From: Candidatus Pacearchaeota archaeon
GTDB taxonomy: Archaea; Nanobdellota; Nanobdellia; Pacearchaeales; GW2011-AR1
Direction: 5' to 3'
Assembly: GCA_018303945.1 (NCBI GenBank)
Contig: JAGVXD010000019.1
Span: 2,975-66,974, forward strand
Length of the DNA: 64,000 nucleotides
The notes under the pieces are model-generated. The model searched no databases. It was not told the DNA's origin and worked only from the letters and a program-made list of their open reading frames with translations. This document shows, piece by piece, positions 10,865 through 23,335 of this stretch. The translations under genes and the position numbers were made by a program. How positions within the stretch are numbered: position 1 is the first letter of the stretch; every line of letters begins with the position of its first letter.

Positions 10865-10887
10865 CTCTTCATTCATACCGCAGATAT

Positions 10888-10959
10888 GCGGCTTTAGTAT
10901 ATCGGTTAGTATGTGACCTTCCCAAGGTCGAGAGCGGGGTTCGATTCCCCGAAGCCGCA
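10888..10959 (+). tRNA. tRNA-Gly(CCC)
   Basis: Acceptor GCGGCTT/AAGCCGC, anticodon loop TTCCCAA, T arm CGGGG-TTCGATT-CCCCG. Confidence 0.9.
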
Positions 10960-10960
10960 T

Positions 10961-11034
10961 GGGGTTGTGGGGTAGCTTAGTCAGCCTTCGAGCCTCGGGT
11001 GCTCGCGACCCCGATGCGAATCCGGGCAATCCCA
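10961..11034 (+). tRNA. tRNA-Pro(CGG)
   Basis: Acceptor GGGGTTG/CAATCCC, anticodon stem CGAGC/GCTCG, loop CTCGGGT. As folded by hand the T arm has an A:C mismatch at 53:61. The gene starts 1 nt after tRNA-Gly. Confidence 0.75.
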
Positions 11035-11103
11035 CTTCTTGATTTCAAGGAACTTAACACTAAGCATCCAACAATTTAAAAATACCCTTAGCTATTTGTA
11101 TGT

Positions 11104-11673
11104 ATGAAAATTTTAGAAGGGGTTAAAAAAGTCTGGTTATACCTCAAACAAGATACATGGCATTCCTGGCTGGTTTCAATAATCCTTATAATACTATTGA
11201 TAAAATTTATATTGTTCCCTGTTCTCTCTTTTATTACAGGCACACCATTACCATTGGTTGTGGTGGAATCGTGCTCAATGTATCACAACTCAGGTTTTAA
11301 TAATTGGTGGATTTCCAATAGTGCATGGTATGAAAATAGAAATATTGAAGAATCTGATTTCCTATTATTTCCTCTAAAAAATGGTCTAAACAAAGGAGAT
11401 ATAGTTTTAGTCTGGGGAAGAACAGACTATAATCTTGGAGATATCGTAATTTTCTCGGCATCTACCCGATATCCAATAATTCATAGAATAGTAGGAAATG
11501 ACCCTATTTCAACAAAAGGAGACAACAATTCTGACCAGTTAGATATAGAAAGAGTTATAGAAAAAGAGACGATAATGGGCAAAGCAGTAGGAAAAGTGCC
11601 TCTCCTCGGCTGGATAAAACTCTTGTTTTTCGAATCTTTCAAGAGTCCTGAAGAAAGAGGTTTCTGCAAATAA
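11104..11673 (+). CDS. signal peptidase I (archaeal/eukaryal S26B type)
   Basis: N-terminal TM helix, a catalytic-Ser box ESCSMYH, GDIVLV and IHRIV boxes. Confidence 0.8.
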   Translation: MKILEGVKKVWLYLKQDTWHSWLVSIILIILLIKFILFPVLSFITGTPLPLVVVESCSMYHNSGFNNWWISNSAWYENRNIEESDFLLFPLKNGLNKGDIVLVWGRTDYNLGDIVIFSASTRYPIIHRIVGNDPISTKGDNNSDQLDIERVIEKETIMGKAVGKVPLLGWIKLLFFESFKSPEERGFCK

Positions 11674-11712
11674 CGAAACCGCAATATTAAAAAACTCTTG
11701 GTACTTGAAAAT

Positions 11713-12024
11713 ATGATGGAATTTTGTCAAAAATGTGGGGGGATAATTGTAGTCAAAGAACAAAAAGCAGTCTGCGCTGCCTGCGGAACAAAGTATGCTA
11801 AAAAACCAAAATTAGAAGCATCTGAAAAGATTGGGAAGAGAGATATGGTAGCAGTGATAGATGAGGATATGGATAATACGTATCCTATCGTAGATATGAC
11901 CTGTCCAAAATGCAAAAATAAAAAATCGTATTTTTGGACGACTCAAACTCGCGCTTCGGACGAATCAGAGACCAAATTTTATAAATGCACTAAGTGCAAG
12001 CATACCTGGCGAAAGTACAGATAG
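11713..12024 (+). CDS. tfs: transcription factor S (TFS / RpoM-like)
   Basis: N-terminal ribbon CQKCGG..CAAC. The C-terminal TFIIS ribbon is CPKC...TRASDESETKFYKCTKC. The ATG at 11713 is preferred over the TTG at 11698. Confidence 0.9.
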   Translation: MMEFCQKCGGIIVVKEQKAVCAACGTKYAKKPKLEASEKIGKRDMVAVIDEDMDNTYPIVDMTCPKCKNKKSYFWTTQTRASDESETKFYKCTKCKHTWRKYR

Positions 12025-12086
12025 TGTAATTATCCTAAAGTAATAACAGTAGAAAGGTTTAAAAACACCTTTTTTCAACAAACCTT

Positions 12087-12479
12087 ATGAGCTTAAACAC
12101 AATATTGCATGCGGAAGATGATGATTTAATAACTAGATTAATGGAAATGATGATAAATAAATATTTCCCTAGGTTTAAATATAAATCAGTTAAAACTGCT
12201 GAAGAGTTCTTGGAAATTTATAGAAAAGCCCATCAAGAAGGAAAGCCTCCATATATAACAATGACAGACTATAATCTGGATGGGAGGATGAAAGGTGCAG
12301 ATGCGTTGGCTACATTAGCACGGGAAGGTACGTTAAAAGCAGATAGGACTTTACTCTGTTCTGGAGACCCTGGACAAGAAGTTCTAGACCAAATAGAAAA
12401 ATTGGGTATATCATTCATCCCAAAACCTATTCCAATAAATGAAATAAGACTATTTATAGAAAGAGCACAAAAAAAATAG
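12087..12479 (+). CDS. single-domain response regulator receiver (CheY-like)
   Basis: EDDD acidic pocket, phospho-acceptor context TMTDYNLDG, and a conserved PKP near the C-terminus. Confidence 0.7.
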   Translation: MSLNTILHAEDDDLITRLMEMMINKYFPRFKYKSVKTAEEFLEIYRKAHQEGKPPYITMTDYNLDGRMKGADALATLAREGTLKADRTLLCSGDPGQEVLDQIEKLGISFIPKPIPINEIRLFIERAQKK

Positions 12480-12521
12480 GGGGAGATATATTTTTAAACG
12501 CGTTGGATTTTGCTCTATCAA

Positions 12522-12647
12522 GGCTCCGTAGCTCAGCCCGGTTAGAGTACTGGACTCTTACATTTAAAGGCGTAAGTCTTAAATGGCTCATGATTGATAT
12601 ACAATCGAGAAATCCAGGTGTCGCGGGTTCAAATCCCGTCGGGGCCA
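12522..12647 (+). tRNA. tRNA-Lys(CUU) with a 51-nt intron (12561..12611)
   Basis: Acceptor GGCTCCG/CGGGGCC, anticodon stem CTGGA/TCCAG, loop CTCTTA|A, T arm GCGGG-TTCAAAT-CCCGT. Confidence 0.8.
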
Positions 12648-12732
12648 TAATACTTTTTATCCCAAAAAGAGGAGCAGACCACCTATAGGGACTATACAGA
12701 CGCTATATAACAAAGTATAGCTTAAGACGAAT

Positions 12733-13911
12733 ATGAGAATATATCCCTACAATAATAAAGATAGATATCTCTCCTGGAAAGAAGGATTAACAGGCTTCAT
12801 AGAAGGTATAAGTAAAGAAAACTCGGATATTCTACTAAGGTATCTTAATGATATGGAAATAGGTATAAACGTTGCCAGAGGGGTTAAAAAAGGCTCCAGA
12901 AGCTATGTGCACCTTAATTCATCAAGAGACAGACTTATTTCCATGATGAAAAAAATGAGTAGCTCGTATGGAGTTGATGACATAACTACTGTGACTGATG
13001 AGCAACTTCATGTTTTCTTTAATGATATGAGAAACGGCAAGATTACTAAACCTAATGGTCAAAAGTACATATGTGTTAGAGACTTTGTTAAAATGTTCAA
13101 AGCCTTTTGGCACTGGCATCAAAGAGTGAATGCCAAAAAAGGAATCCAAATTCAAGATATTACTGTAGACTTGGATACAAGAGAGGAAAAACCTGACTGG
13201 GTCTATCTTACAGAAGAACAAATAAGGAAATTGGCCGATAATGCTAAATATGAATGGAGAGTATTGATTTGGTTCTTGTACGATACAGGAATTAGAGCAC
13301 CTACTGAACTAATGAATGTTAAGGTTTCAGACCTACATAATGATTTCAAAGAGCTTAATATTAGAGAGGAAATAGTTAAAATTGGTTCATTTGGAAGAAG
13401 AATTAAGCTTATGCTCTACAGTTCATTGTTAAAAGAGTATGTAAAACTGAACAATCTAAAAAGCAGCGATTCTCTCTTTAATATAAACTATAATTCTATC
13501 AATAAGTACCTTAAGAATTTAGCTAAGAAATTGTTTGGAGAAGAAAAAACGCTTGCAGGACAAAGATATTGCGACCTAACACTTTATGACTTTAGACATA
13601 ATTCATGCTGTTATTGGCTGCCAAGATATAAGAGTGAGAGCGCATTAAAGTACAGATTTGGGTGGAAAGAGAGCGATAAGATTCATTATTACTCAGAGCT
13701 CTTGGGCATGAAAGATACTATTTCAGAACAAGATATGTTTGTTGATCTTACAAGAACAGAGATAGAAAAGAGACTGGAAAAATCTGAAAAAGAACGAGAA
13801 ATATTAAATGATAAATTCAGGTTGCTTGAAGAAGAGCAGAACGTCTTAAAGCAAACTGTTGCAGAACTCATCCACAATTTTAATGGAAAAAATATATCAA
13901 CTCCTATTTAG
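12733..13911 (+). CDS. int: tyrosine recombinase / phage-type integrase
   Basis: 392 aa with DTGIRAPTEL (box I Arg), LYDFRHNSCCYW (HxxR-like box II) and HYY near the C-terminus. It lies directly after a tRNA. Confidence 0.8.
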   Translation: MRIYPYNNKDRYLSWKEGLTGFIEGISKENSDILLRYLNDMEIGINVARGVKKGSRSYVHLNSSRDRLISMMKKMSSSYGVDDITTVTDEQLHVFFNDMRNGKITKPNGQKYICVRDFVKMFKAFWHWHQRVNAKKGIQIQDITVDLDTREEKPDWVYLTEEQIRKLADNAKYEWRVLIWFLYDTGIRAPTELMNVKVSDLHNDFKELNIREEIVKIGSFGRRIKLMLYSSLLKEYVKLNNLKSSDSLFNINYNSINKYLKNLAKKLFGEEKTLAGQRYCDLTLYDFRHNSCCYWLPRYKSESALKYRFGWKESDKIHYYSELLGMKDTISEQDMFVDLTRTEIEKRLEKSEKEREILNDKFRLLEEEQNVLKQTVAELIHNFNGKNISTPI

Positions 13912-14088
13912 ATAATAAAGATGAGAGAAAAGAGCTAAGCAATTTCTTGAGTGTTTAGGCAATGGAAAATCAATTTATGAGTGTGAAGCAGAAAATGACT
14001 TGCTTGATGAATATCAAGAAGAAATGGAGAATTCAGAAGAATATGAGAAAAGATAAATACTCAATTAAATACCAAACAGGAGGTCAAC

Positions 14089-14259
14089 ATGGTTACAAAA
14101 TTGCCAGAATTCAAAGGCTATACAGTAGATATGAGACTTAAGCAATTCAGAAAAGCTGATAGAAATAAGCCAAGTATCGAATTTATAGACTTTGATTCTG
14201 AAGAAGGTCAAGAGCTTCTAGCAGAATACGAAGAAAGCTTGGAAGAACAAGAAGAATAA
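14089..14259 (+). CDS. small acidic-tailed hypothetical protein (56 aa)
   Basis: Strong AGGAGGT 6 nt upstream of the ATG. The ORF ends just before a perfect palindrome. Confidence 0.4.
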   Translation: MVTKLPEFKGYTVDMRLKQFRKADRNKPSIEFIDFDSEEGQELLAEYEESLEEQEE

Positions 14260-14267
14260 TAGATAAA

Positions 14268-14285
14268 TGATGTGGGCCCACATCA
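14268..14285. terminator. perfect 18-bp palindrome TGATGTGGGCCCACATCA between convergent genes
   Basis: Read directly from the sequence. It sits between the + strand small ORF and the 3' end of the - strand operon. Confidence 0.5.
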
Positions 14286-14326
14286 CACTTGATTATAAAG
14301 TTCGCTTTTCATTTTATCTCCTAAAC

Positions 14327-14758
14327 TCACGGCTTTTGCGCGGCGGCTACGCCGCTAATGCAAACTACCCGACCATACTCGCCCGAGTCAGCCAAATCAT
14401 CGTCGTTCGAGTTGATATTGAGGTTCCAGTTGAGGAACAACCTCGAAAGTCCTGAATTTCTAGTCCATAATTGTCTGTTCTTACCAGGAACATCAGTATC
14501 ATACACTTTTGTTGGCAAACCTGTTTTAGCATCCATTTCAGAGGAATTAATGTAAGATCCATGTTTGCTGTTAAGAATGGGTGCTTCAAAATAAAGAGGA
14601 GTATCAAGAAGTTCTTTCTTTAAATTAAATGCTAGTTTATTAGGCGCCTTATTTTCTTTCCTCAATGAAAGTCCATATAAAGGTAGCACATAAGCAGTAT
14701 TTTCAAGGCTTGCCAGCGCCTCTAAATTGATCATAGAAATCCAAAGCGAGCCAACCAT
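14327..14758 (-). CDS. unknown protein B1 (paralog of 17156..17557)
   Basis: Shares LENTAYVLPLYGLSLRKENKAPNKLAFNLKKELL and NRQLWTRNSGLSRL...GRVVCISG.AAAQKP with B2. The ATG at 14758 is preferred. Confidence 0.55.
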   Translation of the reverse strand: MVGSLWISMINLEALASLENTAYVLPLYGLSLRKENKAPNKLAFNLKKELLDTPLYFEAPILNSKHGSYINSSEMDAKTGLPTKVYDTDVPGKNRQLWTRNSGLSRLFLNWNLNINSNDDDLADSGEYGRVVCISGVAAAQKP

Positions 14759-15230
14759 TAGGATTTCCTTTCGATCTCCATACAAGTGAAGAATCTTCAT
14801 ATTGATTTTGCAAAGGCAATTTATTTCCTTTTAAGATAGCTTCTAACTCTGCTTGTGTTGCTGTTCTAATATTCTTAGGTTGCAATATTTGATTTGCAAC
14901 TATAACTGCGTATGGGTTAGAGCCCTCTACAACTTTCTTTGTAGAATTCCACTTAAGTATCTTAAGAGCGCTTGCGTCATTATAATCTACTTTTACTACC
15001 CGCTCATATTCTTTCAAGAAATCTTTTCCAAAATCTCCTGATAGAAAGAAAGCTGAGGCGAACGGAATCTGGGGAATTGGAGTATTTGAAGCAGGGGATA
15101 CATCAGGATTTGTTCCAGCATTCTTATCAGGTTCTGGTTCTTTATTTCCTTTACCTTTATCTGGCTTCTCTTGACTTACTCTTTGAGCATAGCGTTCTGC
15201 CCATTGTTTATACAGATCAAAGTTGCTCAT
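14703..15230 (-). CDS. unknown protein A1 (paralog of 17529..18017)
   Basis: Shares MSNFDLYKQWAERYAQRVSQ, a P/K/G-rich linker and a conserved C-terminal domain with A2. Confidence 0.65.
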   Translation of the reverse strand: MSNFDLYKQWAERYAQRVSQEKPDKGKGNKEPEPDKNAGTNPDVSPASNTPIPQIPFASAFFLSGDFGKDFLKEYERVVKVDYNDASALKILKWNSTKKVVEGSNPYAVIVANQILQPKNIRTATQAELEAILKGNKLPLQNQYEDSSLVWRSKGNPNGWLALDFYDQFRGAGKP

Positions 15231-15360
15231 TTTCTGCCTCCAATGATGCTAACAATATATCGAGACCTTGCTCTAAAGCATGCGATTTATTTCTGAATGC
15301 TCCTTTGCGTACATACTCTTCAACTTTCTGTATCTTTTCTTCTTCTACAGTTATACTCAT
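15217..15360 (-). CDS. ribbon-helix-helix (CopG/Arc-like) small protein, 47 aa
   Basis: Not in the ORF track. Sequence MSITVEEEKIQKVEEYVRKGAFRNKSHALEQGLDILL fits the RHH strand-helix-helix pattern. It starts 8 nt after the vWA gene stop and overlaps the A1 start. Confidence 0.5.
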   Translation of the reverse strand: MSITVEEEKIQKVEEYVRKGAFRNKSHALEQGLDILLASLEAENEQL

Positions 15361-15368
15361 TTTCTGCT

Positions 15369-17159
15369 TCATGCTGTAGCTCCTGCAATTTTAGGGCTTT
15401 GCTTATAATAACTTGAAACAAAGGAAACCATGCTTCGTGAAAGATCCTCATCGCCTTTTACGTTAATAACTGGAACTCCCAGATCCTTTAGATACGTTGA
15501 AAACGCTGTGTCGCCACCAATTTGAATATGTGCATAATCAGCAGTTCGTATCTTTTGTTCAAAACTAGTTTTTTGAGAGCCATTCATGCTAAATTCTCCA
15601 TCTGAAATAGACAAGACTAAAGCACTATCTTCGATTTCTTTCTCCAAGCCCTCGCTATCAAAGGTAGTAGTTCCTGAGGGTTTTGTTAGCAAGGATTTGG
15701 CGACTAATTCTGATTTTCCACGCACTGCTGATTCTCCTGAGAATCCCAGAACGCTACTTTCAATGTAAGGAGCTACGCCTTGGCGTTCAAAGAAGTTATC
15801 AATGCCAAAATATCCTTTTAATGCGAAATGATATTTACTATTATCTCCCCATGGGATATATGAAGTATTTCCTACTTCTTTTCCATTATCTGAATTAAGA
15901 GCCATACTTCCTGATCTATCCATAAGTGCAAGCTTGAAGTTAGGAAACTGGTGAGGATGTTTCTTGTAAGCAACAGGGTGTTCAACATGATGTTTAGTTG
16001 TCTTTAAACCCATCTCTCCATCAGATTTGAATCCTACTCCTCTGAACTTAAACTTACGTTCATCTTCCTTAACAAATCGTCTCCCATAGCGTACAAGAGG
16101 CATTGCTTGACTTGCTGAGTAATGAGTAGTTTCTACAGGAATTTCCTTAGAAATTTTCTTATAGAGGTCATATAGTTGCTCTTGTAAATCTCTATGTGCA
16201 AGCGGTGCTTCCCCTCCCTGATATCTGCCAAAGGCAATTTCCTGCCTATTAGAAGGCATTTTCATTTCTCGATCAAAAGGATTCTGCTCCTCTGAATTCT
16301 CATCGCCCTCACTTGATCCAAACATTCTTTGTTGCGGTGGCTGATCTTCCAGCAATTTACCTAGATGAACAGCAAAAGAATATCCGAGATTGCTCCATGT
16401 TTTCGCTCTTTGGCGTATATCTGTAGGATCAAACAGCTTTTGGAATCCAGATTTTTCATGTAACTTAAATATCTTCTCTTCTTGGGTAACTGTTCTCATT
16501 TCTCCGAGAAATTGTCCGACTGCTTCTTTTACTTCTGGTTTATCACCAAAGAATCTCTTAAGAAGACTATAGTCTGCTGCTCTTCCTGCAAGCATAAGGT
16601 TAACTTTGACAAAAGCCTCGTAAAAAAGATTATATTTTCCATCCTGCCCATTCACAAGCCCGTGGTTATTCCAAAAAAGAGTTTGGCCTGCAAAATCGGT
16701 ATGTCTCCTGCAATTAATATTATCAAGTACATCTTCAAAAGCATTAGTAACATACTGCTCAAGACCGTTTTTGCCTATCTCTTGCAGTCCTCGTGTTACT
16801 TTGTCCTTGATTCTCTCGTGAGTTTCTAAATCATAGGGGCAACCATATCGTTCTCCTACCTTATTTTCTCTGTGTCCTGCTTCATGGTCGAGTACATCCT
16901 GTCCCGTTTTAAGCAAGGGATCTTTAATCCCTCTAAGAGATGCAAAACGCTTGCTTTCCTCATCAGGCACTAAATCCAAATCTCTTCCATAAGAAAGACT
17001 AATTTCTTTCCAATCTGTTGTAATATGGCCTGCAAAAGTATTTCCAGCAACTTCATCAACATTTAATCTAATTCCAATTAATCCGATCTTGTTTTTTTGC
17101 TGTTCAAGTGCTTGTTTGATGTTTTGAAGTTCGCTTTTCATTTTATCTCCTAAACTCAC
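15369..17159 (-). CDS. vWA-domain protein with N-terminal HExxH metallopeptidase-like motif (MoxR partner; CobT-like architecture)
   Basis: 596 aa with HEAGH at about residue 84 and the MIDAS motif DRSGS (ALMDRSGSM) in the C-terminal third. GTG start. Confidence 0.8.
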   Translation of the reverse strand: MSLGDKMKSELQNIKQALEQQKNKIGLIGIRLNVDEVAGNTFAGHITTDWKEISLSYGRDLDLVPDEESKRFASLRGIKDPLLKTGQDVLDHEAGHRENKVGERYGCPYDLETHERIKDKVTRGLQEIGKNGLEQYVTNAFEDVLDNINCRRHTDFAGQTLFWNNHGLVNGQDGKYNLFYEAFVKVNLMLAGRAADYSLLKRFFGDKPEVKEAVGQFLGEMRTVTQEEKIFKLHEKSGFQKLFDPTDIRQRAKTWSNLGYSFAVHLGKLLEDQPPQQRMFGSSEGDENSEEQNPFDREMKMPSNRQEIAFGRYQGGEAPLAHRDLQEQLYDLYKKISKEIPVETTHYSASQAMPLVRYGRRFVKEDERKFKFRGVGFKSDGEMGLKTTKHHVEHPVAYKKHPHQFPNFKLALMDRSGSMALNSDNGKEVGNTSYIPWGDNSKYHFALKGYFGIDNFFERQGVAPYIESSVLGFSGESAVRGKSELVAKSLLTKPSGTTTFDSEGLEKEIEDSALVLSISDGEFSMNGSQKTSFEQKIRTADYAHIQIGGDTAFSTYLKDLGVPVINVKGDEDLSRSMVSFVSSYYKQSPKIAGATA

Positions 17160-17557
17160 GGCTTTTGCGCGGCGGCTGCGCCGCTAATGCAAACTACCCG
17201 ACCAGCCTCATACGAGCCGGCGAGAACCCCGCCCCTAGCGAAGAGATCCAAGTCCCTGATGAGGTACAACCTCGAAAGTCCTGAATTTCTAGTCCATAAT
17301 TGTCTGTTCCCTGGAACAGCATTCTCATAGACTTTCTTCGGTAGTCCAGTATTGGTATCAACTTCTCCAGCTTTAACATATAATCCGTCTTTACTCATAA
17401 GTATATGAGCTTCAAAATAAAGAGGAGTATAAAGAAGTTCTTTCTTTAAATTAAATGCTAGTTTATTAGGCGCCTTATTTTCTTTCCTCAATGAAAGTCC
17501 ATATAAAGGTAGCACATAAGCAGTATTTTCAAGCGAGCCAACTATTAGGATCTGCAT
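17156..17557 (-). CDS. unknown protein B2
   Basis: Paralog of B1. It overlaps the A2 3' end by 29 nt and the vWA gene start by 4 nt. Confidence 0.55.
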   Translation of the reverse strand: MQILIVGSLENTAYVLPLYGLSLRKENKAPNKLAFNLKKELLYTPLYFEAHILMSKDGLYVKAGEVDTNTGLPKKVYENAVPGNRQLWTRNSGLSRLYLIRDLDLFARGGVLAGSYEAGRVVCISGAAAAQKP

Positions 17558-18017
17558 TAGATCTCCACACGAGAGAAGATTCTACATAATGATTTCCTTT
17601 GATAGGTAATGTATTTGCCTGTGCAATTTTCTCTAACTCTGCTTGTGTAGCAGTTCTGATTCCACTTTTCTCAAGAATCATGTTAGAAAGAACAACTGCA
17701 AAAGGATTTGAGCCCGTTACTTTTTGATTGGCATCATCCCAATTAAGAACTTGCAAAGCTGAGGCATTATTATAATCTTTCTTAACTCTTGCGTTATATT
17801 CCTTTAGAAAGTCTTTTCCAAATTGTCCTTTCAAAAATGAAGCACTCCCAAAAGTATGGGGAACAACAAGAGGAGTGGTTGCATTTGAATCAGGTTGACT
17901 TCCAGCATCTGGCTTAGAATCTGCTTTTTTTCCTTTTCCACCTTTGTCTGGTTGTCCTTGACTTACTCTTTGAGCATAGCGTTCTGCCCATTGCTTGTAA
18001 AGGTCGAAATTACTCAT
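17529..18017 (-). CDS. unknown protein A2
   Basis: Paralog of A1. It starts 2 nt after the MoxR stop. Confidence 0.65.
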   Translation of the reverse strand: MSNFDLYKQWAERYAQRVSQGQPDKGGKGKKADSKPDAGSQPDSNATTPLVVPHTFGSASFLKGQFGKDFLKEYNARVKKDYNNASALQVLNWDDANQKVTGSNPFAVVLSNMILEKSGIRTATQAELEKIAQANTLPIKGNHYVESSLVWRSNADPNSWLA

Positions 18018-18019
18018 GG

Positions 18020-19336
18020 TTATTTCCTCCCTTGTTCTCTTGCTCTTTCAATAATCTCTCGTAATTTGGCCTTTTCTGGATTTTTATCATTCTTCATGAT
18101 TGATGCATAATCTTGAATTGCTTCTTTTACTGGTGTCCAACGACCCTTAACTGATGCAACATCGTTGAGCAAATCTGCATCAGTTATACCTGCTTCTGCT
18201 AAAGCTACAGCTTCCTCAAGCTTAGAAACTCTCTCGAGTATTTCTCTTCGATTGCCTGAATTTTGGCCGAAAAGAGTATCAAAAGCTGAATAAACATCCC
18301 CATTATGTTCTTGGTCTATGTACATTGGAGCAATAACTCCTGAATAAGGAACAGTCAATCGTAAGGCGTCAAGAAATAAATTAGAAGTGGTTGGCTGTTT
18401 TCCTTTTGCTTCTGCAATCATTTGCAAAGCCCCAGTTAACCCGATAGCAGAAAGTACTCCTCTTGGAGAAAATGGAAATACTTTGTTTTCATCAATATCT
18501 GTTCTAATACCTTCCAAATTTGGCCAGCGAGCATCGCATTTAGCTTTGCTATTGCCTTTTACATTTTCCAAATAATCTAAACCTTCCGTAAAATAAAGTC
18601 CTAAAATAGGAAGAAGAGGATACGTTTCTCGTTCTCCAAATTCCTTATGTAATGCAAGAATATCTTCTTTTGAAACTTGTGCCTCATTAGGCATGTCAGA
18701 TCTAGGATTTTTCTTTCCTTTGAACACACTTAAAAGATTTTGAGGTGTCGGCCTATAATCAGGATGATCCAACTTAACAATCATATGCATTCTATCTTTT
18801 AATGCTCTATCTGAATCTGAAACACCTACATATTCTCCATTTCCAAGATTTCCAGTTGCAAAACCAATGCTATAGCCATCAGTTCCTAAATTGAGAATTT
18901 TTCCATCATGAACTAATTTTCCATCAAAGAAGTCAAAGAAATAGTTCTGGACAATAGGTGGAGCCCTATTTAATTCGTCAATAAAGAAAAGATTTTTTCG
19001 CACGTTTTCAGTTAACTCTACAAGCTCTCGATCGGTTTTTGCATCCTTAAGACTCCCTAACCTCACTTGTTTTAAAAGTTCAGAAGGTTCAAAATCTGGG
19101 CGACCCATTGCATAACAGGCAGAATCATTAAAATAGCTCAAAAGATCATGTCCAAGTTGAGTCTTACCTCTTCCTGTTCCTCCCACATAATAGACATTTA
19201 ATCTTGCAATCAAAGGAGCTTTTACCAAAACATCTCGTGCACTATAGGCAACACCACCAAGAGAGATCTCTCTATCGTTGGAGTATCTTCCTGCCTCTAA
19301 TCGTTCAATTGCCTGCTTTGATTTATCTGATACCAT
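18020..19336 (-). CDS. MoxR-family AAA+ ATPase (CobS-like)
   Basis: 438 aa with Walker A GGTGRGKT and the MoxR-typical Walker B FFIDELNRAPP. Confidence 0.85.
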   Translation of the reverse strand: MVSDKSKQAIERLEAGRYSNDREISLGGVAYSARDVLVKAPLIARLNVYYVGGTGRGKTQLGHDLLSYFNDSACYAMGRPDFEPSELLKQVRLGSLKDAKTDRELVELTENVRKNLFFIDELNRAPPIVQNYFFDFFDGKLVHDGKILNLGTDGYSIGFATGNLGNGEYVGVSDSDRALKDRMHMIVKLDHPDYRPTPQNLLSVFKGKKNPRSDMPNEAQVSKEDILALHKEFGERETYPLLPILGLYFTEGLDYLENVKGNSKAKCDARWPNLEGIRTDIDENKVFPFSPRGVLSAIGLTGALQMIAEAKGKQPTTSNLFLDALRLTVPYSGVIAPMYIDQEHNGDVYSAFDTLFGQNSGNRREILERVSKLEEAVALAEAGITDADLLNDVASVKGRWTPVKEAIQDYASIMKNDKNPEKAKLREIIERAREQGRK

Positions 19337-19428
19337 GTTTTAACTTAAAAATAGTACTTTATACTACTATTTAAACTTTTTTGTTGTTACCATTTTAAAG
19401 TAAAATAAATAAAGAGTGGTTTTATCTT

Positions 19429-19671
19429 TTGAATATTTATTATAAATATACGATAGTGATCCTAATAGCAGTAATTGGAATTAGTTTCATTATTACTCCT
19501 CACGTTATAGCTGAAAAATACATAACTGAAAATCTAGAGATAGGTTTAACTCTCTTGGGTGGAGGAACAGTAATATTTGCTCACTGGAAGAACAGAGTCT
19601 ATTGTATAGCTTGTCAAAAGAAGCCGCTTTCTTGCTTTAATAATTGTAATGAATGTAAAATGAGAGTATAA
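19429..19671 (+). CDS. small membrane protein with C-terminal Cys cluster (TTG start)
   Basis: 80 aa with two hydrophobic helices and CIAC...CNEC. Confidence 0.35.
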   Translation: MNIYYKYTIVILIAVIGISFIITPHVIAEKYITENLEIGLTLLGGGTVIFAHWKNRVYCIACQKKPLSCFNNCNECKMRV

Positions 19672-20135
19672 ATTGCTGTACCTTGTAAGTTGTTGCTGAT
19701 GTTTTTAAAGCTGAGAGCTAGATTCCTTGGTTTTATGAATAAGAAAGAAAAGCAAATTATAAAGAAGATTTACAATGACTGCTTAGAACTTGAGAAAAAG
19801 AAAGATATAACTGAATATGGCAAAGGTCAGAGAGATTTATGCAAACTATTATTAAAAACTGGATGAAAATGAGACAACACTTGTACAATGAATTAATAAT
19901 CTTTAATATCTTAGAAGTTAGAATGTTAAAAGCGCCTACTGTCGAGTTGAAGCTGAAATATATAAAGACAAACCAACATACTTACGTGTATAAAACTTGT
20001 ACTGTGTCTGCTCCTCAAAACAGACAAAAAGTGCTAGAGGGCGCCGGGGCCATCTTATCTTTCAGAGAAACTCTGTAATTATAGTCTAGAACATAATAAA
20101 TTAAACAGTTTTTCCAGACATACTCAAAAGAGAGA

Positions 20136-20417
20136 TTAACTTAATAATCTTCGTATATTCTCTATATTCTCTGCAATTTCTTGCCCTTTCTTTGTCAGCT
20201 TGATAAGCTTAGTGCGTCCTTTCTTCTCAAAAACAACTAAACCTAATTGCTCCAAGCTCTGCAGTATTTTAACTGCATGACTATAAGTGCAATCCACTTC
20301 CTTCGCAAGAATGCTTCCATATCTGGCCCTTGTCATTCTCTTTAGTGCTACAAGCATTAATGCTGGTTTTCTTCTAAAGAAGATATCAAGTGTCTCATGA
20401 TCTGTTTTAGATATCAT
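20136..20417 (-). CDS. winged-helix transcriptional regulator (ArsR/MarR-like)
   Basis: 93 aa. YGSILAKEVDCTYSHAVKILQSLEQLGLV is a typical HTH recognition segment. Confidence 0.7.
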   Translation of the reverse strand: MISKTDHETLDIFFRRKPALMLVALKRMTRARYGSILAKEVDCTYSHAVKILQSLEQLGLVVFEKKGRTKLIKLTKKGQEIAENIENIRRLLS

Positions 20418-20645
20418 TAAATGTTATGTATATGATACAATCTATATATTAAACTCGTATATAGCTTTTAAATTTTTCCGTATGTTTGTTATAGCCAGCA
20501 GTAGCAAAAAAACCCAAGTTATTGACTTTAAAGTGAAGGCAGTATATATAGAAATATATCTCTTGGTCGGCAGTTCAGATTTATCAGAGATAAGAAGCGA
20601 CCCTCCATTGCAAAAACTTAAAAGAGCTCGTCTCTTTTATATAAC

Positions 20646-21257
20646 ATGAGAAAATTAAAGATTTTAGCGGCTTCTGACATAGAAGGAGATTCAAAACTAG
20701 CAAGAAAACTTGCCGAGAAAGCAGAAAGGGAGAAAGTGGATCTTGTAGTATTGTGCGGAGACCTTACAGGCTATGTGGAGACTAAAAACCTCATTAAGCC
20801 CTTTAAGGATAAAAAGAAAAAGGTGCTGATAATACCTGGAAATCACGATTCTTTCGCTACTGTGGACTTCCTTGCTGCAATGTATGGGGTAAGCAACATA
20901 CATGGTTATTCCGTCCAATACGAGCATGTTGGATTTTTTGGAGCTGGAGGGGCAGCAAACACCCCCTTTTTCCCAGGAGCTGTGACAGAAGAAGAAATAT
21001 TCGAGACTTTAAAAAAGGCGCATGCTGGCCTTAAAGGCATAGAAAAAAAGATAATGGTAACTCACATGCATCCTGCAGGCAGTCTCTCGGAATTTTCAGG
21101 AGTTGAGGGAAGCAAGGCTATATCTAAAGCCATAAAGCAATTCAAACCCGATATCCTTTTACATGGTCACATTCACGAAGCTTCTGGCTTTGAGCAGAAA
21201 ATAGGAACAACTAGAGTGATAAATGTAGGCAGAGAAGGTCAGATTATTGAACTCTAA
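20646..21257 (+). CDS. metallophosphoesterase (calcineurin-like)
   Basis: Motifs SDIEGD, GDLTG, GNHD and GHIHE. Confidence 0.8.
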   Translation: MRKLKILAASDIEGDSKLARKLAEKAEREKVDLVVLCGDLTGYVETKNLIKPFKDKKKKVLIIPGNHDSFATVDFLAAMYGVSNIHGYSVQYEHVGFFGAGGAANTPFFPGAVTEEEIFETLKKAHAGLKGIEKKIMVTHMHPAGSLSEFSGVEGSKAISKAIKQFKPDILLHGHIHEASGFEQKIGTTRVINVGREGQIIEL

Positions 21258-21380
21258 ATATAATAAGATTACTCAAATATTGCGTTCTTCCGCTACATAC
21301 GATATTTACAGAAGCCGCTCACCAAACTGAAATTAAAAAATAAGTGGCGATTTGGGCTAATTTCTGTCTTTTATGAGAAA

Positions 21381-21526
21381 AGTTGCCGAAGGCAAAAGAA
21401 ATTACCTCTTAATCTGCTGTTGCTTGACCTGAAGCGAAGCGGAAGGCACGAGTGGAGCAAGAAGCGACCTCGTGAGTGAAAGTTTTGTTCTCAGCCGATT
21501 TCGTAGCGTAGTTGCTGAAGAGAAAC
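21381..21526. repeat. structured element, upstream arm U1 (divergent type)
   Basis: Contains CCTCTTAATCTGCTGTT, GCGAAGC, the hairpin CACGAG..CTCGTG, and GTTCTCAGCCGATTTCG.AGCGTAGTTGCTGAAGAGAAA. Confidence 0.75.
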
Positions 21527-21540
21527 ATATTTAATATTAG
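21527..21540 (+). promoter_or_regulatory. TATA-like box about 20-30 nt upstream of the cassette ORF1 ATG
   Basis: ATATTTAATATTAG. The same spacing is seen for ORF2 and ORF3 and for the peptide gene on the - strand. Confidence 0.35.
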
Positions 21541-21556
21541 GCAAATTATCAATATT

Positions 21557-21922
21557 ATGAAATCCAAGATAAAATCTTTAAGCAGGAATGAGCAACGGAC
21601 AATTATTGTTTTTGAAATGAACAATCAAATTATAAAAATTATTGAAAAAACATTTAAGAAATTAAAGTCCGATTTTGAATTGTCAGATTATAAGAAAAAA
21701 TATGGAGATAAAATTATTGACAATTCTTGGGAGTTAAATAAGAAAGATGAGGACTTTAATTTTAGTCTAGTTGCGAAAAAAGATTTTGTGAAATTGAAAC
21801 TAAAAGCAAGCTTGGATTTCGTAAACAAGTTTTTGAAAATTCTGGAAAATGATACAGAATTTTCCGAATTATTGCCTAAGATTAAAGCAAAATTAGAAAG
21901 GCGAAAATTCAAATTTCTCTAA
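21557..21922 (+). CDS. cassette ORF1, Lys-rich hypothetical protein (121 aa from ATG 21557)
   Basis: ORF enclosed by the U1 and D1 arms. Its last codons and stop pair with U1. Confidence 0.5.
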   Translation: MKSKIKSLSRNEQRTIIVFEMNNQIIKIIEKTFKKLKSDFELSDYKKKYGDKIIDNSWELNKKDEDFNFSLVAKKDFVKLKLKASLDFVNKFLKILENDTEFSELLPKIKAKLERRKFKFL

Positions 21923-22260
21923 AGCAATTTCGTTAAAGCTTTGTTAGACAAAGTTGCATAGCAATTTTGTGAGTTTTCTCTGTGTGGCTTTAACGAAGCG
22001 AGAAATAACAAGGCTGAGAATTGCTCACAGCCAAAAGGACAGGAAGAGGGGAAACTAAAACTCTATGTCGGAAATTGGGGGGAAGGTGAGCAACCGCAGG
22101 CAAAACTTTCATTTTGGGCAACGTCGCGATTAAGGAAAGTTTTTTCTTCCTCGAGGAGCGAAGCGACGAAGAAGTTTTCAAAAATCCGTCATCAAGGGCG
22201 AAGCTCCATAAATTCAAATGTTTTAGAGAGGGAACTTTTATTTTCATTTATTAACTTTAA
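21918..22260. repeat. structured element, downstream arm D1
   Basis: AGCAATTTCGTTAAAGC...GCTTTAACGAAGCGAGAAATAACAAGGCTGAGAATTGC followed by a GCGAAGC-containing tail. Confidence 0.75.
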
Positions 22261-22311
22261 AGTAGTAGATCAATCAAAAGCTTTATAAATAAGTTATGGG
22301 TAACTATTTGC

Positions 22312-22965
22312 ATGAGATTATATCAAAGAATTATTGCGGGTGGATTAGTAGTTGCAGGTTTAGCTGGACTGCTTGGTTGCGATAATGATAGACCGAGAAC
22401 AGAAGAGCCAAAACCCAAATCTGTTGCTGCTGTAGAACTTTATCCGCATGGAAATGCAGGTGTAGCAATTGGAGATATAACAGGCGATAAATTGCCTGAT
22501 CTTGTTATTGCTGCTGAAAAGATTATAGAAAGAGAAGCAGTAGTTTATGTTTCTGACAATAGAGGAAATTATCAATTTGGAAATCCAACATTAATTGCTT
22601 CTGTTCCCCTTTATGGAGGTGGAAGAGAACTAATTTTTGGTGGAGGTTCTCCTGGTCTTGATGTTGCTTTAGGAGACTTTGATAATGACGGAGACTTAGA
22701 TATTTTAGTTGCAGCTGAGAAGCTTGATAAAAAAGAAGCGGCAATATTCAGAATAGAAAATCTAGGAAATAATACTTATTCAAATCCAAAACACGTTGGA
22801 GATGTTCCATTGGCTACTGCCGGAGGATTGAGTATAGCGACACAAGATATTAACCAAGATGGAAGAACAGACATATTAGTTTCTGCCGAGCATCCAAGCA
22901 AAAGAGAAGCAAATATGTATTTTTTTGAAAATGAAGGCAATAATTCTTTTGAAGCTGTAAAGTAA
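22312..22965 (+). CDS. FG-GAP/VCBS-repeat lipoprotein
   Basis: Lipobox-like LLGC, and three repeats of the form GD(I/F)xxDGxxDI(L)V.AE(K/H). Confidence 0.75.
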   Translation: MRLYQRIIAGGLVVAGLAGLLGCDNDRPRTEEPKPKSVAAVELYPHGNAGVAIGDITGDKLPDLVIAAEKIIEREAVVYVSDNRGNYQFGNPTLIASVPLYGGGRELIFGGGSPGLDVALGDFDNDGDLDILVAAEKLDKKEAAIFRIENLGNNTYSNPKHVGDVPLATAGGLSIATQDINQDGRTDILVSAEHPSKREANMYFFENEGNNSFEAVK

Positions 22966-22995
22966 ATTTCTTTTTCGCAGAAAAAGACTATCTGT
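22963..22995. repeat. 33-bp direct repeat DR-left (TAAATTTCTTTTTCGCAGAAAAAGACTATCTGT)
   Basis: Matches 25150-25182 at 32 of 33 positions. It contains the hairpin TCTTTTTC/GAAAAAGA. Confidence 0.85.
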
Positions 22996-23335
22996 CTGCA
23001 GGACTAAAAGTTCCCCCCCTTTCTATTTTTTAGGATTTTTGAAAATTGAAACTAACATCGGCATTAAGAGAAGTTTTCCGAAGGAAAATTTGGGCAAAAT
23101 CCTGCAAGGATTTTCCTCTTAATCGCTGTTATGTCTGGGTGAGCGAAGCGAAAGGGTGCAACCCTTCCCCGAGGATTTTTTCAGCAGAAAAAACCGCAGA
23201 GTTGTGAGATGGCACTTGTATTAATTTTAAAGATGGCACTTCAGGACGGCGGGACGCTGTCCAAATAAATAAGAGCTGTGCGCGTCTTTTTTGCTTCTTT
23301 TTTTCTAAAAAAGAAGATGGGCACTTTTCCGTTTG
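22996..23335. repeat. structured element X (U1-related) with AGATGGCACTT direct repeats
   Basis: Shares AAGTT..CCGAAGG, CCTCTTAATCGCTGTT and GAGCGAAGCGAAAGG with U1. AGATGGCACTT occurs at 23207 and 23231. Confidence 0.65.

What the first reader, a model, noticed from the sequence alone, without database searches (positions are those of the whole stretch)
15217..19336. MoxR AAA+ / HExxH-vWA operon with unknown companion genes: candidate conflict or chaperone system on a mobile element
The operon encodes a MoxR-type ATPase (GGTGRGKT, DELNRAPP). It also encodes a 596-aa protein that combines an N-terminal HEAGH motif with a C-terminal MIDAS vWA domain (DRSGS). These genes are interleaved with two unknown protein families (A and B) and a 47-aa RHH protein. 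MoxR-vWA pairs are established as two-component modules. Examples are the CobS/CobT-like pairs of phages and the MoxR-vWA ternary conflict systems proposed from comparative genomics. The third components here (A and B) and the fusion of HExxH with vWA do not correspond to any version I can name. Location on an integrase element suggests a defence or counter-defence role, or a role in element maintenance. That suggestion is inference.
Basis: partly seen in the sequence, partly recalled or inferred. Interest (0 to 1): 0.7.

Follow-up and report, generated by a model that had tools for sequence, protein, structure and literature searches.

The report
DGR variable-protein cassette with MoxR–vWA
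The operon is real, but its two "unknown families" are one gene, a hypervariable protein of the kind written by a diversity-generating retroelement, and across tiny DPANN archaea such proteins sit in a conserved cassette with an AAA+ ATPase and a vWA adaptor that probably handles them through a shared N-terminal tag.

Summary
Two corrections apply.

- "A" and "B" are halves of one ~300-aa gene. The window carries a 44-nt and a 5-nt deletion that five other assemblies of the same locus lack.

The gene is a DGR (diversity-generating retroelement) variable protein. The two copies are 98% identical on both sides of a 62-nt hypervariable patch, which is followed by a conserved GC hairpin.

In related DPANN genomes the same cassette runs MoxR, variable protein, vWA, (RHH), variable protein. 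It ends in a template repeat and a DGR reverse transcriptase, with adenine-specific TR/VR mismatches.
- MoxR was present in 35 of 35 loci with enough upstream flank.
- An RT was present in 13 of 19 loci with enough flank on both sides.

This window has no RT or TR, and VR1 is identical in every assembly that covers it (VR2 is covered only by one contig from the window's own source). I read this as a frozen, RT-less copy.

The C-terminal vWA/MIDAS domain is confirmed by fold. The HExxH glutamate is Gly in 27% of the family, so peptidase activity is doubtful.

New observation: genes flanking the vWA gene share a locus-specific N-terminal tag even when the rest of the protein is unrelated.

Verdict: a new variant of the known DGR-coupled MoxR-vWA systems. 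The mobile-element link is weak.

The parts
18020..19336 (-). AAA+ ATPase of the MoxR/AAA_5 group, 438 aa. Walker A is at residues 52-59 and Walker B D120-E121.
   Evidence: Pfam AAA_5 at 8.4e-9. Of 32 orthologs, 30 match AAA_5 and 10 match bpMoxR. The ortholog profile matches midasin AAA domains at 1.6e-12 and MoxR 2r44 at 4e-5 in the PDB. It was present next to the vWA gene in 35 of 35 loci with at least 3.5 kb upstream.
17156..18017 (-). Variable protein copy 1 (TP1). In this window it is split by a 44-nt deletion at 17530/17531. It is intact (301 aa) in L009.
   Evidence: for the intact form. for the 88 homologs of about 250-305 aa, those labelled by a source being DPANN apart from one 'Bacillota' label, with no Pfam match. 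AF2 model of the intact paralog has pLDDT 88.5: helix 3-19, disordered 20-57, globular 58-299.
17958..18017 (-). N-terminal tag of TP1 (MSNFDLYKQWAERYAQRVSQ). It is identical in TP2.
   Evidence: Between the two copies there are 7 synonymous and 0 non-synonymous differences in these 20 codons. Shared tags are general in this cassette family.
17204..17265 (-). VR1, the hypervariable patch of TP1 (62 nt).
   Evidence: It differs from VR2 at 27 positions while about 50 nt on either side are 98% identical. The differences are enriched at adenine positions of the related TR of L005 (16/28 against 11/54, p = 0.0012).
17169..17203 (-). Invariant IMH-like segment (17185-17203) and GC hairpin GCGGCG-CAGC-CGCCGC (17169-17184), downstream of VR1 and inside the coding region.
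   Evidence: Read directly from the sequence. It is conserved in copy 2 and in the VRs of L005 and L018, but absent from their TRs. A hairpin inside the target gene is described for nanoarchaeal DGRs (PMC4372165, PMC5006420).
15369..17159 (-). 596-aa protein. The N-terminal domain (about 1-345) is alpha-helical with a 3-stranded sheet and carries an HxxxHxE metal-type motif. The C-terminal domain (about 405-590) is vWA with a complete MIDAS.
   Evidence: AF2 pLDDT 88.5. Foldseek against the PDB matches vWA domains of TFIIH p44, factor B, NorD and Rpn10 (E from 6e-4, probability 1.0). Divergent family members match Pfam VWA above the cut-off. Invariant D414, S416, T498 and D520; S418 in 73 of 74.
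16866..16886 (-). HEAGHRE (residues 92-98).
   Evidence: H92, H96 and E98 are invariant in 74 of 74 members. E93 is Glu in 54 and Gly in 20. G106 and P108 are invariant and C107 is present in 72 of 74.
15906..15920 (-). MIDAS DxSxS (DRSGS, residues 414-418).
15217..15372 (-). 51-aa ribbon-helix-helix protein. It overlaps the end of the vWA gene by 4 nt and the start of TP2 by 14 nt.
   Evidence: Weak NikR/ParD/CdrS matches. Four of 10 orthologs match Pfam RHH_1, best 4e-4. Orthologs lie either here or directly upstream of MoxR in other loci.
14327..15230 (-). Variable protein copy 2 (TP2). In this window it is split by a 5-nt deletion at about 14705. It is intact (302 aa, P0122) elsewhere.
   Evidence: dN/dS against TP1 is 0.25 in the globular parts, so both copies are under purifying selection.
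14375..14436 (-). VR2, the hypervariable patch of TP2. It is rich in AAY/GAY codons (NWNLNINSNDDD).
14340..14374 (-). IMH-like segment (14356-14374) and hairpin GCGGCG-TAGC-CGCCGC (14340-14355) of copy 2.
12733..13911 (+). Tyrosine-recombinase-type integrase. It is a neighbour and is not shown to belong to the system. It occupies the place where relatives carry TR and RT.
   Evidence: phrog_1 integrase at 5.4e-13. An intron-bearing tRNA at 12522-12647 lies just upstream. No att repeat was found. Homologous integrases lie within 2-5 kb of the cassette in L007 and L033 only.

Best explanation
What it is: an RT-less copy of a cassette so far seen almost only in DPANN archaea, in which hypervariable proteins written by a diversity-generating retroelement (DGR) are operonically coupled to an AAA+/vWA pair.

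Gene order on the minus strand: MoxR-type ATPase, variable protein 1, HxxxHxE-vWA protein, RHH regulator, variable protein 2.

Each variable protein has four parts:
- an invariant 20-aa N-terminal helix (the 'tag');
- a disordered linker of about 38 aa;
- a globular domain;
- a C-terminal hypervariable patch (VR), followed by the cis elements that DGR homing uses.

In about two thirds of related loci a template repeat and a DGR reverse transcriptase follow directly and rewrite the VRs. Here they are absent from the whole 64-kb window, and VR1 is the same in every assembly that covers it (VR2 is covered only by one contig from the window's own source).

Proposed mechanism (inferred):
- The soluble, cytoplasmic variable proteins are ligand receptors.
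- Their tag docks them to the vWA protein, most likely through an acidic tag residue on the MIDAS metal or on the N-terminal metal-site domain.
- The MoxR hexamer then uses ATP to remodel, load or release them.
- The HxxxHxE domain either cleaves the linker, in the members that keep the Glu, or acts only as a binding module.
- The RHH protein autoregulates the operon.
For: Shown:
1. A+B is one gene and is duplicated.
2. In the close relative L005/L016 (vWA 71% identical) the order is the same and is followed by TR and RT. TR and VR differ only at TR adenines: 11-13 mismatches, all at A.
3. Across 73 species-representative genomes, MoxR is present in 35 of 35 loci with enough upstream flank. 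An RT is present in 13 of 19 with enough flank on both sides. A-specific TR/VR pairs occur in 35 loci. The VRs sit at the 3' ends of the genes immediately flanking the vWA gene. Control: 48 A-type pairs against 1-8 for the other bases, among 636 repeat pairs.
4. The RTs carry YVDD and the DGR-type LGNxxSQ motif.
5. The window's VRs have 27 differences in 62 nt between 98%-identical flanks, enriched at the relative's TR adenines (p = 0.0012). A conserved GC hairpin follows.
6. The vWA fold and a complete MIDAS are confirmed.
7. Both copies are under purifying selection. The tag has 7 synonymous and 0 non-synonymous changes. The VR has dN/dS of about 1.1.
8. In 37 of 44 loci, genes flanking the vWA gene share their first ~45 residues beyond the 99th percentile of inter-locus pairs. 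This includes 26 pairs whose remainder is unrelated. Examples: 7 genes in L079, and two WD40 proteins plus variable proteins in L001.
9. No transmembrane segment or signal-like N-terminus was found by hydropathy.

Precedent: DGR-diversified receptor domains coupled to MoxR-vWA systems in bacteria (PMC7159879, PMC10907252).
Against: - The window has no RT and no TR. VR1 is identical in six contigs from five separate assemblies. DGR activity here is therefore historical or acts in trans, and is not demonstrated.
- Eleven of the 27 VR1/VR2 differences fall at non-adenine positions of the relative's TR. The two VRs may derive from different or diverged templates.
- The variable protein has no significant structural neighbour (best Foldseek E = 0.6). 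C-type-lectin-fold proteins, including the DGR protein TaqVP, only dominate the weak hits.
- No physical contact between the tag and vWA or MoxR was tested.
- No recognisable effector domain is present, which weakens a defence reading.
- Most RTs of this clade are not next to MoxR-vWA: 2 of 8 loci with both flanks, 5 of 35 with one flank. The variable-protein family also occurs without MoxR-vWA, for example in L097.
Confidence: 0.62

Rival explanations
1. Assembly or export chaperone for surface adhesins. MoxR-vWA would load or assemble the tagged hypervariable proteins into a cell-surface or filament structure used for host attachment. This would resemble the MoxR p618 and vWA p892 pair in tail development of Acidianus two-tailed virus. 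The tag would be an assembly signal.
For: - DPANN DGR variable proteins are generally proposed to mediate host attachment (PMC5006420, PMC6349945).
- MoxR-vWA pairs are assembly chaperones in several systems, listed in PMC7159879.
- The tag-linker-cargo layout would suit a loading signal.
Against: - Hydropathy found no transmembrane or signal-peptide-like stretch in any window protein of the operon. Across the families, none of 74 vWA proteins, 2 of 85 variable proteins and 4 of 32 MoxR proteins pass the threshold.
- No secretion or pilus genes lie in the cassette.
- The family is absent from viral contigs.
Confidence: 0.15
2. Dedicated quality control. A hypermutating protein produces many misfolded variants. 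The MoxR-vWA pair, with its zincin-like domain, would recognise the constant tag and refold or degrade bad variants.
For: - The constant tag and the disordered linker are the only invariant and accessible parts of a protein whose binding site is randomised.
- The HExxH Glu is kept in 73% of the family.
- The operon is tightly coupled, with overlapping genes.
Against: - Six of 19 well-flanked cassettes have no RT. Some of these carry 5-7 different tagged proteins (L072, L079) that are not DGR targets.
- 27% of the family lack the catalytic Glu.
- Most DGRs of this RT clade manage without MoxR-vWA.
Confidence: 0.1
3. Cargo of an integrase-borne mobile element, with a role in element maintenance or counter-defence.
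For: - The integrase and an intron-bearing tRNA lie directly beside the cassette.
- Homologous integrases lie within 2-5 kb in L007 and L033.
- The cassette sits in different genomic neighbourhoods in related genomes.
Against: - No direct repeat of the tRNA 3' end was found anywhere in the window.
- There is no compositional break.
- There are no relatives in IMG/VR.
- Most loci with 10-kb flanks have no homologous integrase.
- Neighbours are often housekeeping genes, for example Phe-tRNA synthetase in L003.
Confidence: 0.08
4. Decaying remnant. The DGR was lost, with the integrase inserted where TR and RT were. The target genes would be frameshifted pseudogenes and the operon non-functional in this genome.
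For: - The window shows both copies frameshifted.
- No RT or TR is present.
- VR1 is invariant across the assemblies that cover it.
Against: - Five other assemblies have both genes intact.
- dN/dS is 0.25 in the globular parts and the tag has zero non-synonymous changes.
- The IMH-like segment and hairpin are perfectly kept in both copies.
- RT-less cassettes are common (6 of 19) and look intact.
Confidence: 0.05

Closest known systems
DGR-associated MoxR-vWA 'VMAP ternary' conflict systems of cyanobacteria and gammaproteobacteria (Kaur et al. 2020, PMC7159879; Dore et al. 2024, PMC10907252)
   Same: - A MoxR-type AAA+ ATPase is paired with a MIDAS vWA protein.
- There is a hypervariable receptor domain rewritten by a DGR.
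- A peptidase-like domain is present in the system.
- Paralogous targets and a nearby RT and TR are present.
   Different: - Here the variable domain is on separate small proteins, not fused to the vWA protein.
- The peptidase-like HxxxHxE domain is fused to vWA rather than sitting on a VMAP.
- No VMAP, iSTAND, FtsH or vWA-fused beta-propeller component is detected.
- No recognisable effector is present.
- The hosts are DPANN archaea, not multicellular bacteria. [quoted passage not shown]
Nanoarchaeal/DPANN DGRs and the variable protein AvpA (Paul et al. 2015, PMC4372165; Handa et al. 2016, PMC5006420)
   Same: - Same kind of host. One vWA locus (L061) comes from the very single-cell genome AAA011-G17 studied there.
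- The target proteins are orphans of about 250-300 aa.
- The VR is short, lies near the C-terminus and is rich in AAY codons.
- The hairpin lies inside the coding region.
- There are multiple targets per locus.
   Different: - Those papers do not mention an ATPase or a vWA neighbour. A text search of the 2015 paper found zero occurrences.
- The family here is not detectably related to AvpA in sequence.
- AvpA is not among the top 50 Foldseek matches.
MoxR-vWA chaperone pairs: NorQ/NorD, CbbQ/CbbO, RavA/ViaA, midasin, ATV p618/p892
   Same: - An AAA_5/MoxR-type ATPase is encoded beside a vWA adaptor whose MIDAS binds the client.
- NorD vWA is among the structural matches.
- Midasin and MoxR 2r44 are the best PDB sequence matches of the ATPase profile.
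   Different: - The clients here are multiple interchangeable tagged proteins, partly hypervariable.
- The vWA protein has a unique 345-aa N-terminal domain with no Pfam or PDB sequence match.
Pfam DUF2201_N (putative HExxH metallopeptidase) plus DUF2201 (VWA-like) proteins encoded next to MoxR ATPases. This is recalled from memory as a lead only.
   Same: As I recall it, these proteins have an N-terminal HExxH domain fused to a C-terminal vWA-like domain and lie beside a MoxR gene.
   Different: - None of the 74 family members matches PF13203 or PF09967, even at E <= 1.
- Any relationship is beyond HMMER's reach and was not tested by structure.

Membership tests
Diversity-generating retroelement (DGR) cassette | A reverse transcriptase of the DGR clade in the locus | tested here: not met
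   tblastn with the L005 RT finds nothing in the 64-kb window (best E = 0.43). The feature is met in relatives: 13 of 19 well-flanked loci, with YVDD and LGNxxSQ motifs.
Diversity-generating retroelement (DGR) cassette | A template repeat (TR) matching the VR, with mismatches only at TR adenines | tested here: not met
   There is no third copy of the VR in the window. In relatives it is met in 35 loci at >=80% A-specific mismatches, against 1-8 pairs for the control bases.
Diversity-generating retroelement (DGR) cassette | A hypervariable region at the 3' end of the target gene, between conserved flanks | tested here: met
   The 62-nt patch has 27 differences between the two copies, with 98%-identical flanks. 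dN is 0.60 in the VR against 0.08 just upstream.
Diversity-generating retroelement (DGR) cassette | An invariant IMH-like segment and a GC hairpin downstream of the VR | tested here: met
   GGTCGGGTAGTTTGCATTA followed by GCGGCG-NAGC-CGCCGC occurs in both copies. It is absent from the TRs of relatives. Function was not tested.
Diversity-generating retroelement (DGR) cassette | Ongoing diversification: VR alleles differing between samples | tested here: not met
   VR1 is identical in six contigs from five separate assemblies. Only consensus sequences were compared; read-level data are not available.
MoxR-type AAA+ ATPase (broad sense, including AAA_5/CbbQ/NorQ/midasin-like) | Walker A and B motifs and a profile match to the AAA_5/MoxR families | tested here: met
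   GGTGRGKT and DE are present. AAA_5 scores 36 bits against a cut-off of 22. Of the orthologs, 30 of 32 match AAA_5, 10 of 32 bpMoxR and 3 of 32 AAA_3. PDB matches are midasin at 1.6e-12 and MoxR 2r44 at 4e-5. The helix-2 insert that defines the clade was not examined.
vWA domain with MIDAS | Rossmann-like vWA fold and the DxSxS...T...D metal site | tested here: met
   Foldseek matches vWA domains at probability 1.0. D414, S416, T498 and D520 are invariant and S418 is present in 73 of 74. Pfam VWA is matched above cut-off only by divergent members (P0354, 25.7 bits against 23.8).
Zincin (HExxH) metallopeptidase | HExxH with a conserved catalytic Glu and a third metal ligand | tested here: inconclusive
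   The window has HEAGH. H92, H96 and E98 are invariant, but the Glu is Gly in 20 of 74 members. There is no Pfam peptidase match.
Zincin (HExxH) metallopeptidase | Zincin fold: a beta-sheet followed by an active-site helix | not testable with these tools
   The model has a 3-stranded sheet (residues 31-58), then helix 81-95 ending in the motif. That is compatible with a zincin fold. A domain-only structure search could not be run, and the whole-chain matches are all vWA.
Kaur et al. MoxR-vWA ternary systems (VMAP, iSTAND, FtsH, beta-propeller types) | A defining third component: VMAP, an inactive STAND, FtsH, or a beta-propeller fused to vWA | tested here: not met
   No such Pfam families match any operon protein or any of the 74 vWA homologs. 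WD40 proteins occur as separate tagged genes in L001 only.
CobS/CobT-like phage pair | A profile match to the CobS and CobT families | tested here: not met
   phrog_249 matches the ATPase at only E = 0.014, and nothing matches the vWA protein.
C-type-lectin-fold DGR variable proteins (Mtd, TvpA, TaqVP, AvpA) | A CLec fold presenting the VR as a binding surface | tested here: inconclusive
   The model is confident (pLDDT 88.5). The best PDB match has E = 0.6. About 30 of the 50 weak matches are CLec/FGE-type: MBP, CD23, TaqVP 5vf4 and EgtB. Nothing was found in BFVD.
Ribbon-helix-helix (CopG/Arc/MetJ) regulators | A profile match and the strand-helix-helix pattern | tested here: met
   Four of 10 orthologs match RHH_1, best 4e-4. 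The window protein itself gives only weak NikR/ParD/CdrS matches. The alignment shows the pattern.
tRNA-integrating mobile element | An integrase beside a tRNA, plus a direct repeat of the tRNA end at the far border | tested here: not met
   The integrase (phrog_1, 5.4e-13) and the tRNA are present. No repeat of at least 12 nt of the tRNA 3' half exists in the window.

The most novel reading that the evidence does not exclude
DPANN archaea would have a tag-directed client system. A MoxR-vWA machine would accept a changeable set of cytoplasmic receptor proteins that all carry the locus's own N-terminal tag. The set would be diversified either by a DGR (hypervariable binding pockets) or by paralog turnover (5-7 unrelated tagged cargo genes in RT-less loci). 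That would make many 'orphan' DPANN DGR targets intracellular sensors of an ATP-gated recognition system rather than surface adhesins. It would be an archaeal counterpart of the bacterial DGR-coupled conflict systems, with a new docking principle.
Probability: 0.3. Interest if true: 0.85.

Novelty: new variant of a known kind. Interest (0 to 1): 0.6.

Why it matters
DGRs are unusually abundant in DPANN archaea, yet what their hypervariable proteins do is unknown. The standing guess is host attachment.

This analysis shows three things about a sizeable class of those proteins:
- they are soluble;
- they carry a strongly conserved N-terminal tag;
- they are always encoded with a MoxR ATPase and a MIDAS adaptor.

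That gives a concrete and testable handle on their function: tag-vWA binding, ATP-dependent remodelling and metal-site chemistry.

It also extends the DGR plus MoxR-vWA theme to archaea with very small genomes. Until now that theme was tied to multicellular bacteria.

It also shows that RT-less cassettes reach variety through many differently built tagged proteins.

For annotation, it warns that the two 'unknown families' in this window are an assembly-specific split of one gene.

Tried and rejected
- Pfam, PHROGs, PADLOC and NCBIfam scans of all operon proteins named only AAA_5 and the integrase.
- PDB sequence searches, single and profile, for the vWA and variable proteins returned only spurious coronavirus spike matches or nothing.
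- I considered a programmed +1 frameshift at GCT/CCT-TGA-A, because both copies shift into the same frame. I rejected it because five other assemblies have no frameshift.
- I looked for a TR or RT anywhere in the window and for a remnant between TP2 and the integrase. There is none. The only homology downstream of TP2 is a duplicated copy of the first ~34 nt of the vWA gene.
- I looked for att repeats of the tRNA and found none.
- I looked for the family on viral contigs and found none.
- I tested whether MoxR-vWA is a general accessory of this RT clade. It is not.
- A Foldseek search of the variable-protein model against viral structures gave nothing.
- Pfam scans of tagged cargo proteins from L072 and L079 gave nothing.
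- Paul et al. 2017 (Nat Microbiol), the main survey of DPANN DGRs, is not in the library. I therefore could not check whether it already notes ATPase or vWA neighbours.

Full report
**What is in the window**

All the genes lie on the minus strand:

| Coordinates | Product |
|---|---|
| 18020-19336 | AAA+ ATPase, 438 aa |
| 17529-18017 | ORF 'A', 162 aa |
| 17156-17557 | ORF 'B', 133 aa |
| 15369-17159 | 596-aa protein |
| 15217-15372 | 51-aa ORF |
| 14703-15230 | A', 175 aa |
| 14327-14800 | B', 157 aa |

They form a second A/B pair, 58% and 73% identical in protein to the first.
- An intron-bearing tRNA that ARAGORN missed lies at 12522-12647.
- A tyrosine-recombinase-type integrase lies at 12733-13911 (phrog_1, 5.4e-13). 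It is convergent with the operon.

**A and B are one gene**

- The ENA contig L009 is identical to window 9374-23115 except for two indels. It encodes uninterrupted proteins of 301 and 302 aa where the window has A+B and A'+B'.
- The window lacks 44 nt at 17530/17531 and 5 nt near 14705.
- Four further assemblies (L010, L011, L012, L014) read AAGCCTTTGAAGGAAAATACT across the junction. The contigs L010 and L011 are each seen in 4 and 13 samples.
- Both deletions lie inside a stretch that is identical in the two copies. Short-read assemblies visibly break or collapse there. The cluster representative P0121 is itself a chimera of copy 1 and copy 2.
- Between the intact copies, dN/dS is 0.25 in the globular parts. 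The first 20 codons carry 7 synonymous and no non-synonymous changes. Both copies are therefore functional genes.
- I first considered a programmed +1 frameshift and rejected it on this evidence.

**The gene is a DGR variable protein**

- In the closest relative (L005/L016, vWA protein 71% identical) the order is AAA_5, 299-aa gene, vWA, 51-aa RHH, 299-aa gene. An 80-nt repeat and an RVT_1 gene follow.
- The repeat upstream of the RT differs from the 3' ends of both 299-aa genes at 11-13 positions. Every one is an adenine in the RT-proximal copy. This is the signature of a diversity-generating retroelement.
- In the window, the two copies are 98% identical for about 50 nt on either side of a 62-nt patch (17204-17265 and 14375-14436) that carries 27 differences.
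- Those differences are enriched at the adenine positions of the relative's TR: 16 of 28 against 11 of 54, Fisher p = 0.0012.
- Directly after the patch, both copies keep an invariant segment and a GC hairpin, GCGGCG-NAGC-CGCCGC, inside the coding region. This arrangement is described for nanoarchaeal DGR targets (PMC4372165, PMC5006420).

**How general the cassette is**

- A scan of one genome per species found 73 loci encoding the 596-aa family. Their record titles are nearly all Woesearchaeota, Pacearchaeota or Nanoarchaeota. One is the single-cell genome AAA011-G17 of Paul et al. 2015.
- MoxR is present in 35 of 35 loci with at least 3.5 kb upstream.
- A DGR-type RT is present in 13 of the 19 loci with at least 5 kb upstream and 4 kb downstream, and TR/VR pairs with adenine bias in 12 of them.
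- The VRs lie at the 3' ends of the genes immediately before and after the vWA gene. The TR lies just upstream of the RT.
- As a control, among 636 repeat pairs, 48 have at least 80% of mismatches at A. The figures for C, G and T are 2, 8 and 1.
- The RTs carry YVDD and the DGR motif LGNxxSQ.
- The converse does not hold. Among 80 metagenome loci with this RT clade, only 2 of 8 with at least 5 kb on both sides carry MoxR or vWA, and 5 of 35 with one long flank. The variable-protein family also occurs beside RTs without them.
- MoxR-vWA is therefore not a homing accessory. It is a functional partner of one class of targets.

**State of this copy**

- The 64-kb window has no RT and no TR. The position they occupy in relatives holds two small ORFs and the integrase.
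- VR1 is identical in six contigs from five separate assemblies. There is no sign of current diversification at consensus level.
- Six of 19 well-flanked cassettes are likewise RT-less.

**The 596-aa protein**

- AlphaFold gives a confident model (pLDDT 88.5).
- Residues ~405-590 match vWA domains of TFIIH p44, factor B, NorD and Rpn10 (Foldseek E from 6e-4, probability 1.0).
- The MIDAS residues D414, S416, T498 and D520 are invariant, and S418 is present in 73 of 74.
- Divergent members reach Pfam VWA above the cut-off.
- The N-terminal ~345 residues have no Pfam or PDB sequence match.
- H92, H96, E98, G106 and P108 are invariant and C107 is nearly so. The Glu of HExxH is Gly in 20 of 74 members.
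- A conserved metal site is therefore supported. A conserved peptidase is not.
- The model's sheet-then-helix arrangement is compatible with a zincin fold. I could not run a domain-only search.
- An exhaustive profile search finds only 420 clusters in 1.84 billion representatives. None is on viral contigs.

**The other components**

- The ATPase matches AAA_5 and, in a third of orthologs, bpMoxR. Its profile matches midasin and MoxR 2r44 in the PDB.
- The 51-aa protein is a ribbon-helix-helix protein. Four of 10 orthologs match RHH_1.
- In other loci the RHH gene sits directly upstream of MoxR. It is most likely the operon's regulator.
- None of the window's proteins in the operon has a transmembrane or signal-like segment by hydropathy.

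**The variable protein and its tag**

- The model of the intact paralog (pLDDT 88.5) has a helix at 3-19, a disordered linker at 20-57 and a globular domain at 58-299.
- No structural neighbour is significant (best E = 0.6). About 30 of the 50 weak PDB matches have the C-type-lectin or FGE fold, including the DGR protein TaqVP. The solved nanoarchaeal target AvpA likewise escaped prediction before its structure showed a divergent CLec fold (PMC5006420). I treat the CLec assignment as plausible and unproven.
- The new observation concerns the N-terminus. In 37 of 44 loci, the genes flanking the vWA gene share their first ~45 residues beyond the 99th percentile of inter-locus comparisons (95 of 136 pairs). 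In 26 of these pairs the rest of the protein shows no similarity.
- L079 has seven genes beginning MTPKNPFADPEHPIDYNIRGKDV, followed by a charged linker and different bodies. L072 has five such genes. In L001 the tag is shared by variable proteins and two WD40 proteins.
- The tags differ between loci. They usually contain an aromatic or hydrophobic residue next to acidic residues.

**Mechanism (inferred)**

- The constant tag docks each cargo protein to the vWA adaptor. The MIDAS, which binds an acidic residue of a client peptide in other MoxR-vWA systems, is the obvious site.
- MoxR supplies ATP-driven remodelling.
- The hypervariable pocket binds an unknown ligand.
- The metal-site domain either cuts the linker or only binds.
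- This parallels the DGR-coupled VMAP ternary systems of bacteria (PMC7159879, PMC10907252), but the domains are distributed differently and there is no VMAP and no recognisable effector.
- Rivals are given separately: an assembly chaperone for surface adhesins, quality control of hypermutated proteins, mobile-element cargo, and a decaying remnant.

**Novelty**

- DGRs in DPANN, and DGR plus MoxR-vWA systems in bacteria, are both published. The combination in DPANN, the HxxxHxE-vWA protein and the shared tag are not mentioned in the papers I could read.
- Dore et al. 2024 state that CPR/DPANN clade 5F DGRs lack conflict-system domains.
- Paul et al. 2017 could not be read, so priority is uncertain.
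- I rate this a new variant of a known kind.

Noticed in passing
window 17530/17531 and about 14705: The window differs from an otherwise identical public contig (L009, 0 mismatches in 13.7 kb) only by a 44-nt and a 5-nt deletion. Both lie inside the repeat shared by the two variable-protein genes and both cause frameshifts. They look like assembly or curation errors at a repeat.
   Followed up: yes
window 12522-12647 and 10229-10381: Rfam detects two intron-containing tRNAs (53 and 55.6 bits) that ARAGORN misses. The first lies 85 nt upstream of the integrase gene.
   Followed up: partly
window 14298-14330: Downstream of TP2's stop there is a copy of the first ~33 nt of the vWA gene (GTGAGTTTAGGAGATAAAATGAAAAGCGAACTT). 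The duplication that made the second target gene therefore carried the TP/vWA junction with it. The same trace is present in L005.
   Followed up: partly
window 14268-14285: A perfect 18-nt palindrome, TGATGTGGGCCCACATCA, lies between TP2 and the small ORFs next to the integrase. It could be a terminator or a recombination border.
   Followed up: no
L079:6804-14145 and L072:7112-12786: These RT-less cassettes carry 7 and 5 genes with the same N-terminal tag and mostly unrelated bodies. None has a Pfam match. Variety seems to come from paralog turnover instead of a DGR.
   Followed up: partly
L001:5213-6229 and L001:11675-12733: Two WD40 beta-propeller proteins carry the same N-terminal tag (MKSEYNTLEFDYDRIR...) as the four variable-protein paralogs of that locus. 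The locus lies on a 1-Mb contig.
   Followed up: partly
L007:3-215 and L033:3-479, 2116-2856: Integrases homologous to the window's integrase lie within 2-5 kb of the DGR/MoxR cassette in two other genomes. This hints that some cassettes travel on integrase-bearing islands.
   Followed up: partly
protein P0121 (cluster representative): This representative sequence is a chimera: the N-terminal part of copy 1 joined to the C-terminal part, including the VR, of copy 2. It probably arose from assembly collapse across the repeat. Database entries for this family should be used with care.
   Followed up: no
C-termini of flanking genes in L003, L008, L072, L079: Many tagged proteins end in ...G(L)GVR(F/V)A(R)EK or ...SRGVRKKK. 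This resembles the RFxGV motif of the IMH-encoded beta5 strand of AvpA (PMC5006420). Several cargo families may be AvpA-like.
   Followed up: no
L003:10784-11998 with VR at L003:7879-7945: In L003 the TR (10802-10868) lies inside the annotated start of the RT ORF. Its VR lies at the end of the gene upstream of the vWA gene. The second flanking gene has the same tag but a different body.
   Followed up: no
window 22312-22965: This is a 217-aa FG-GAP/VCBS-repeat protein with a lipoprotein-like N-terminus (LAGLLGC), 3 kb upstream of the operon. It is a surface protein unrelated to the cassette.
   Followed up: no
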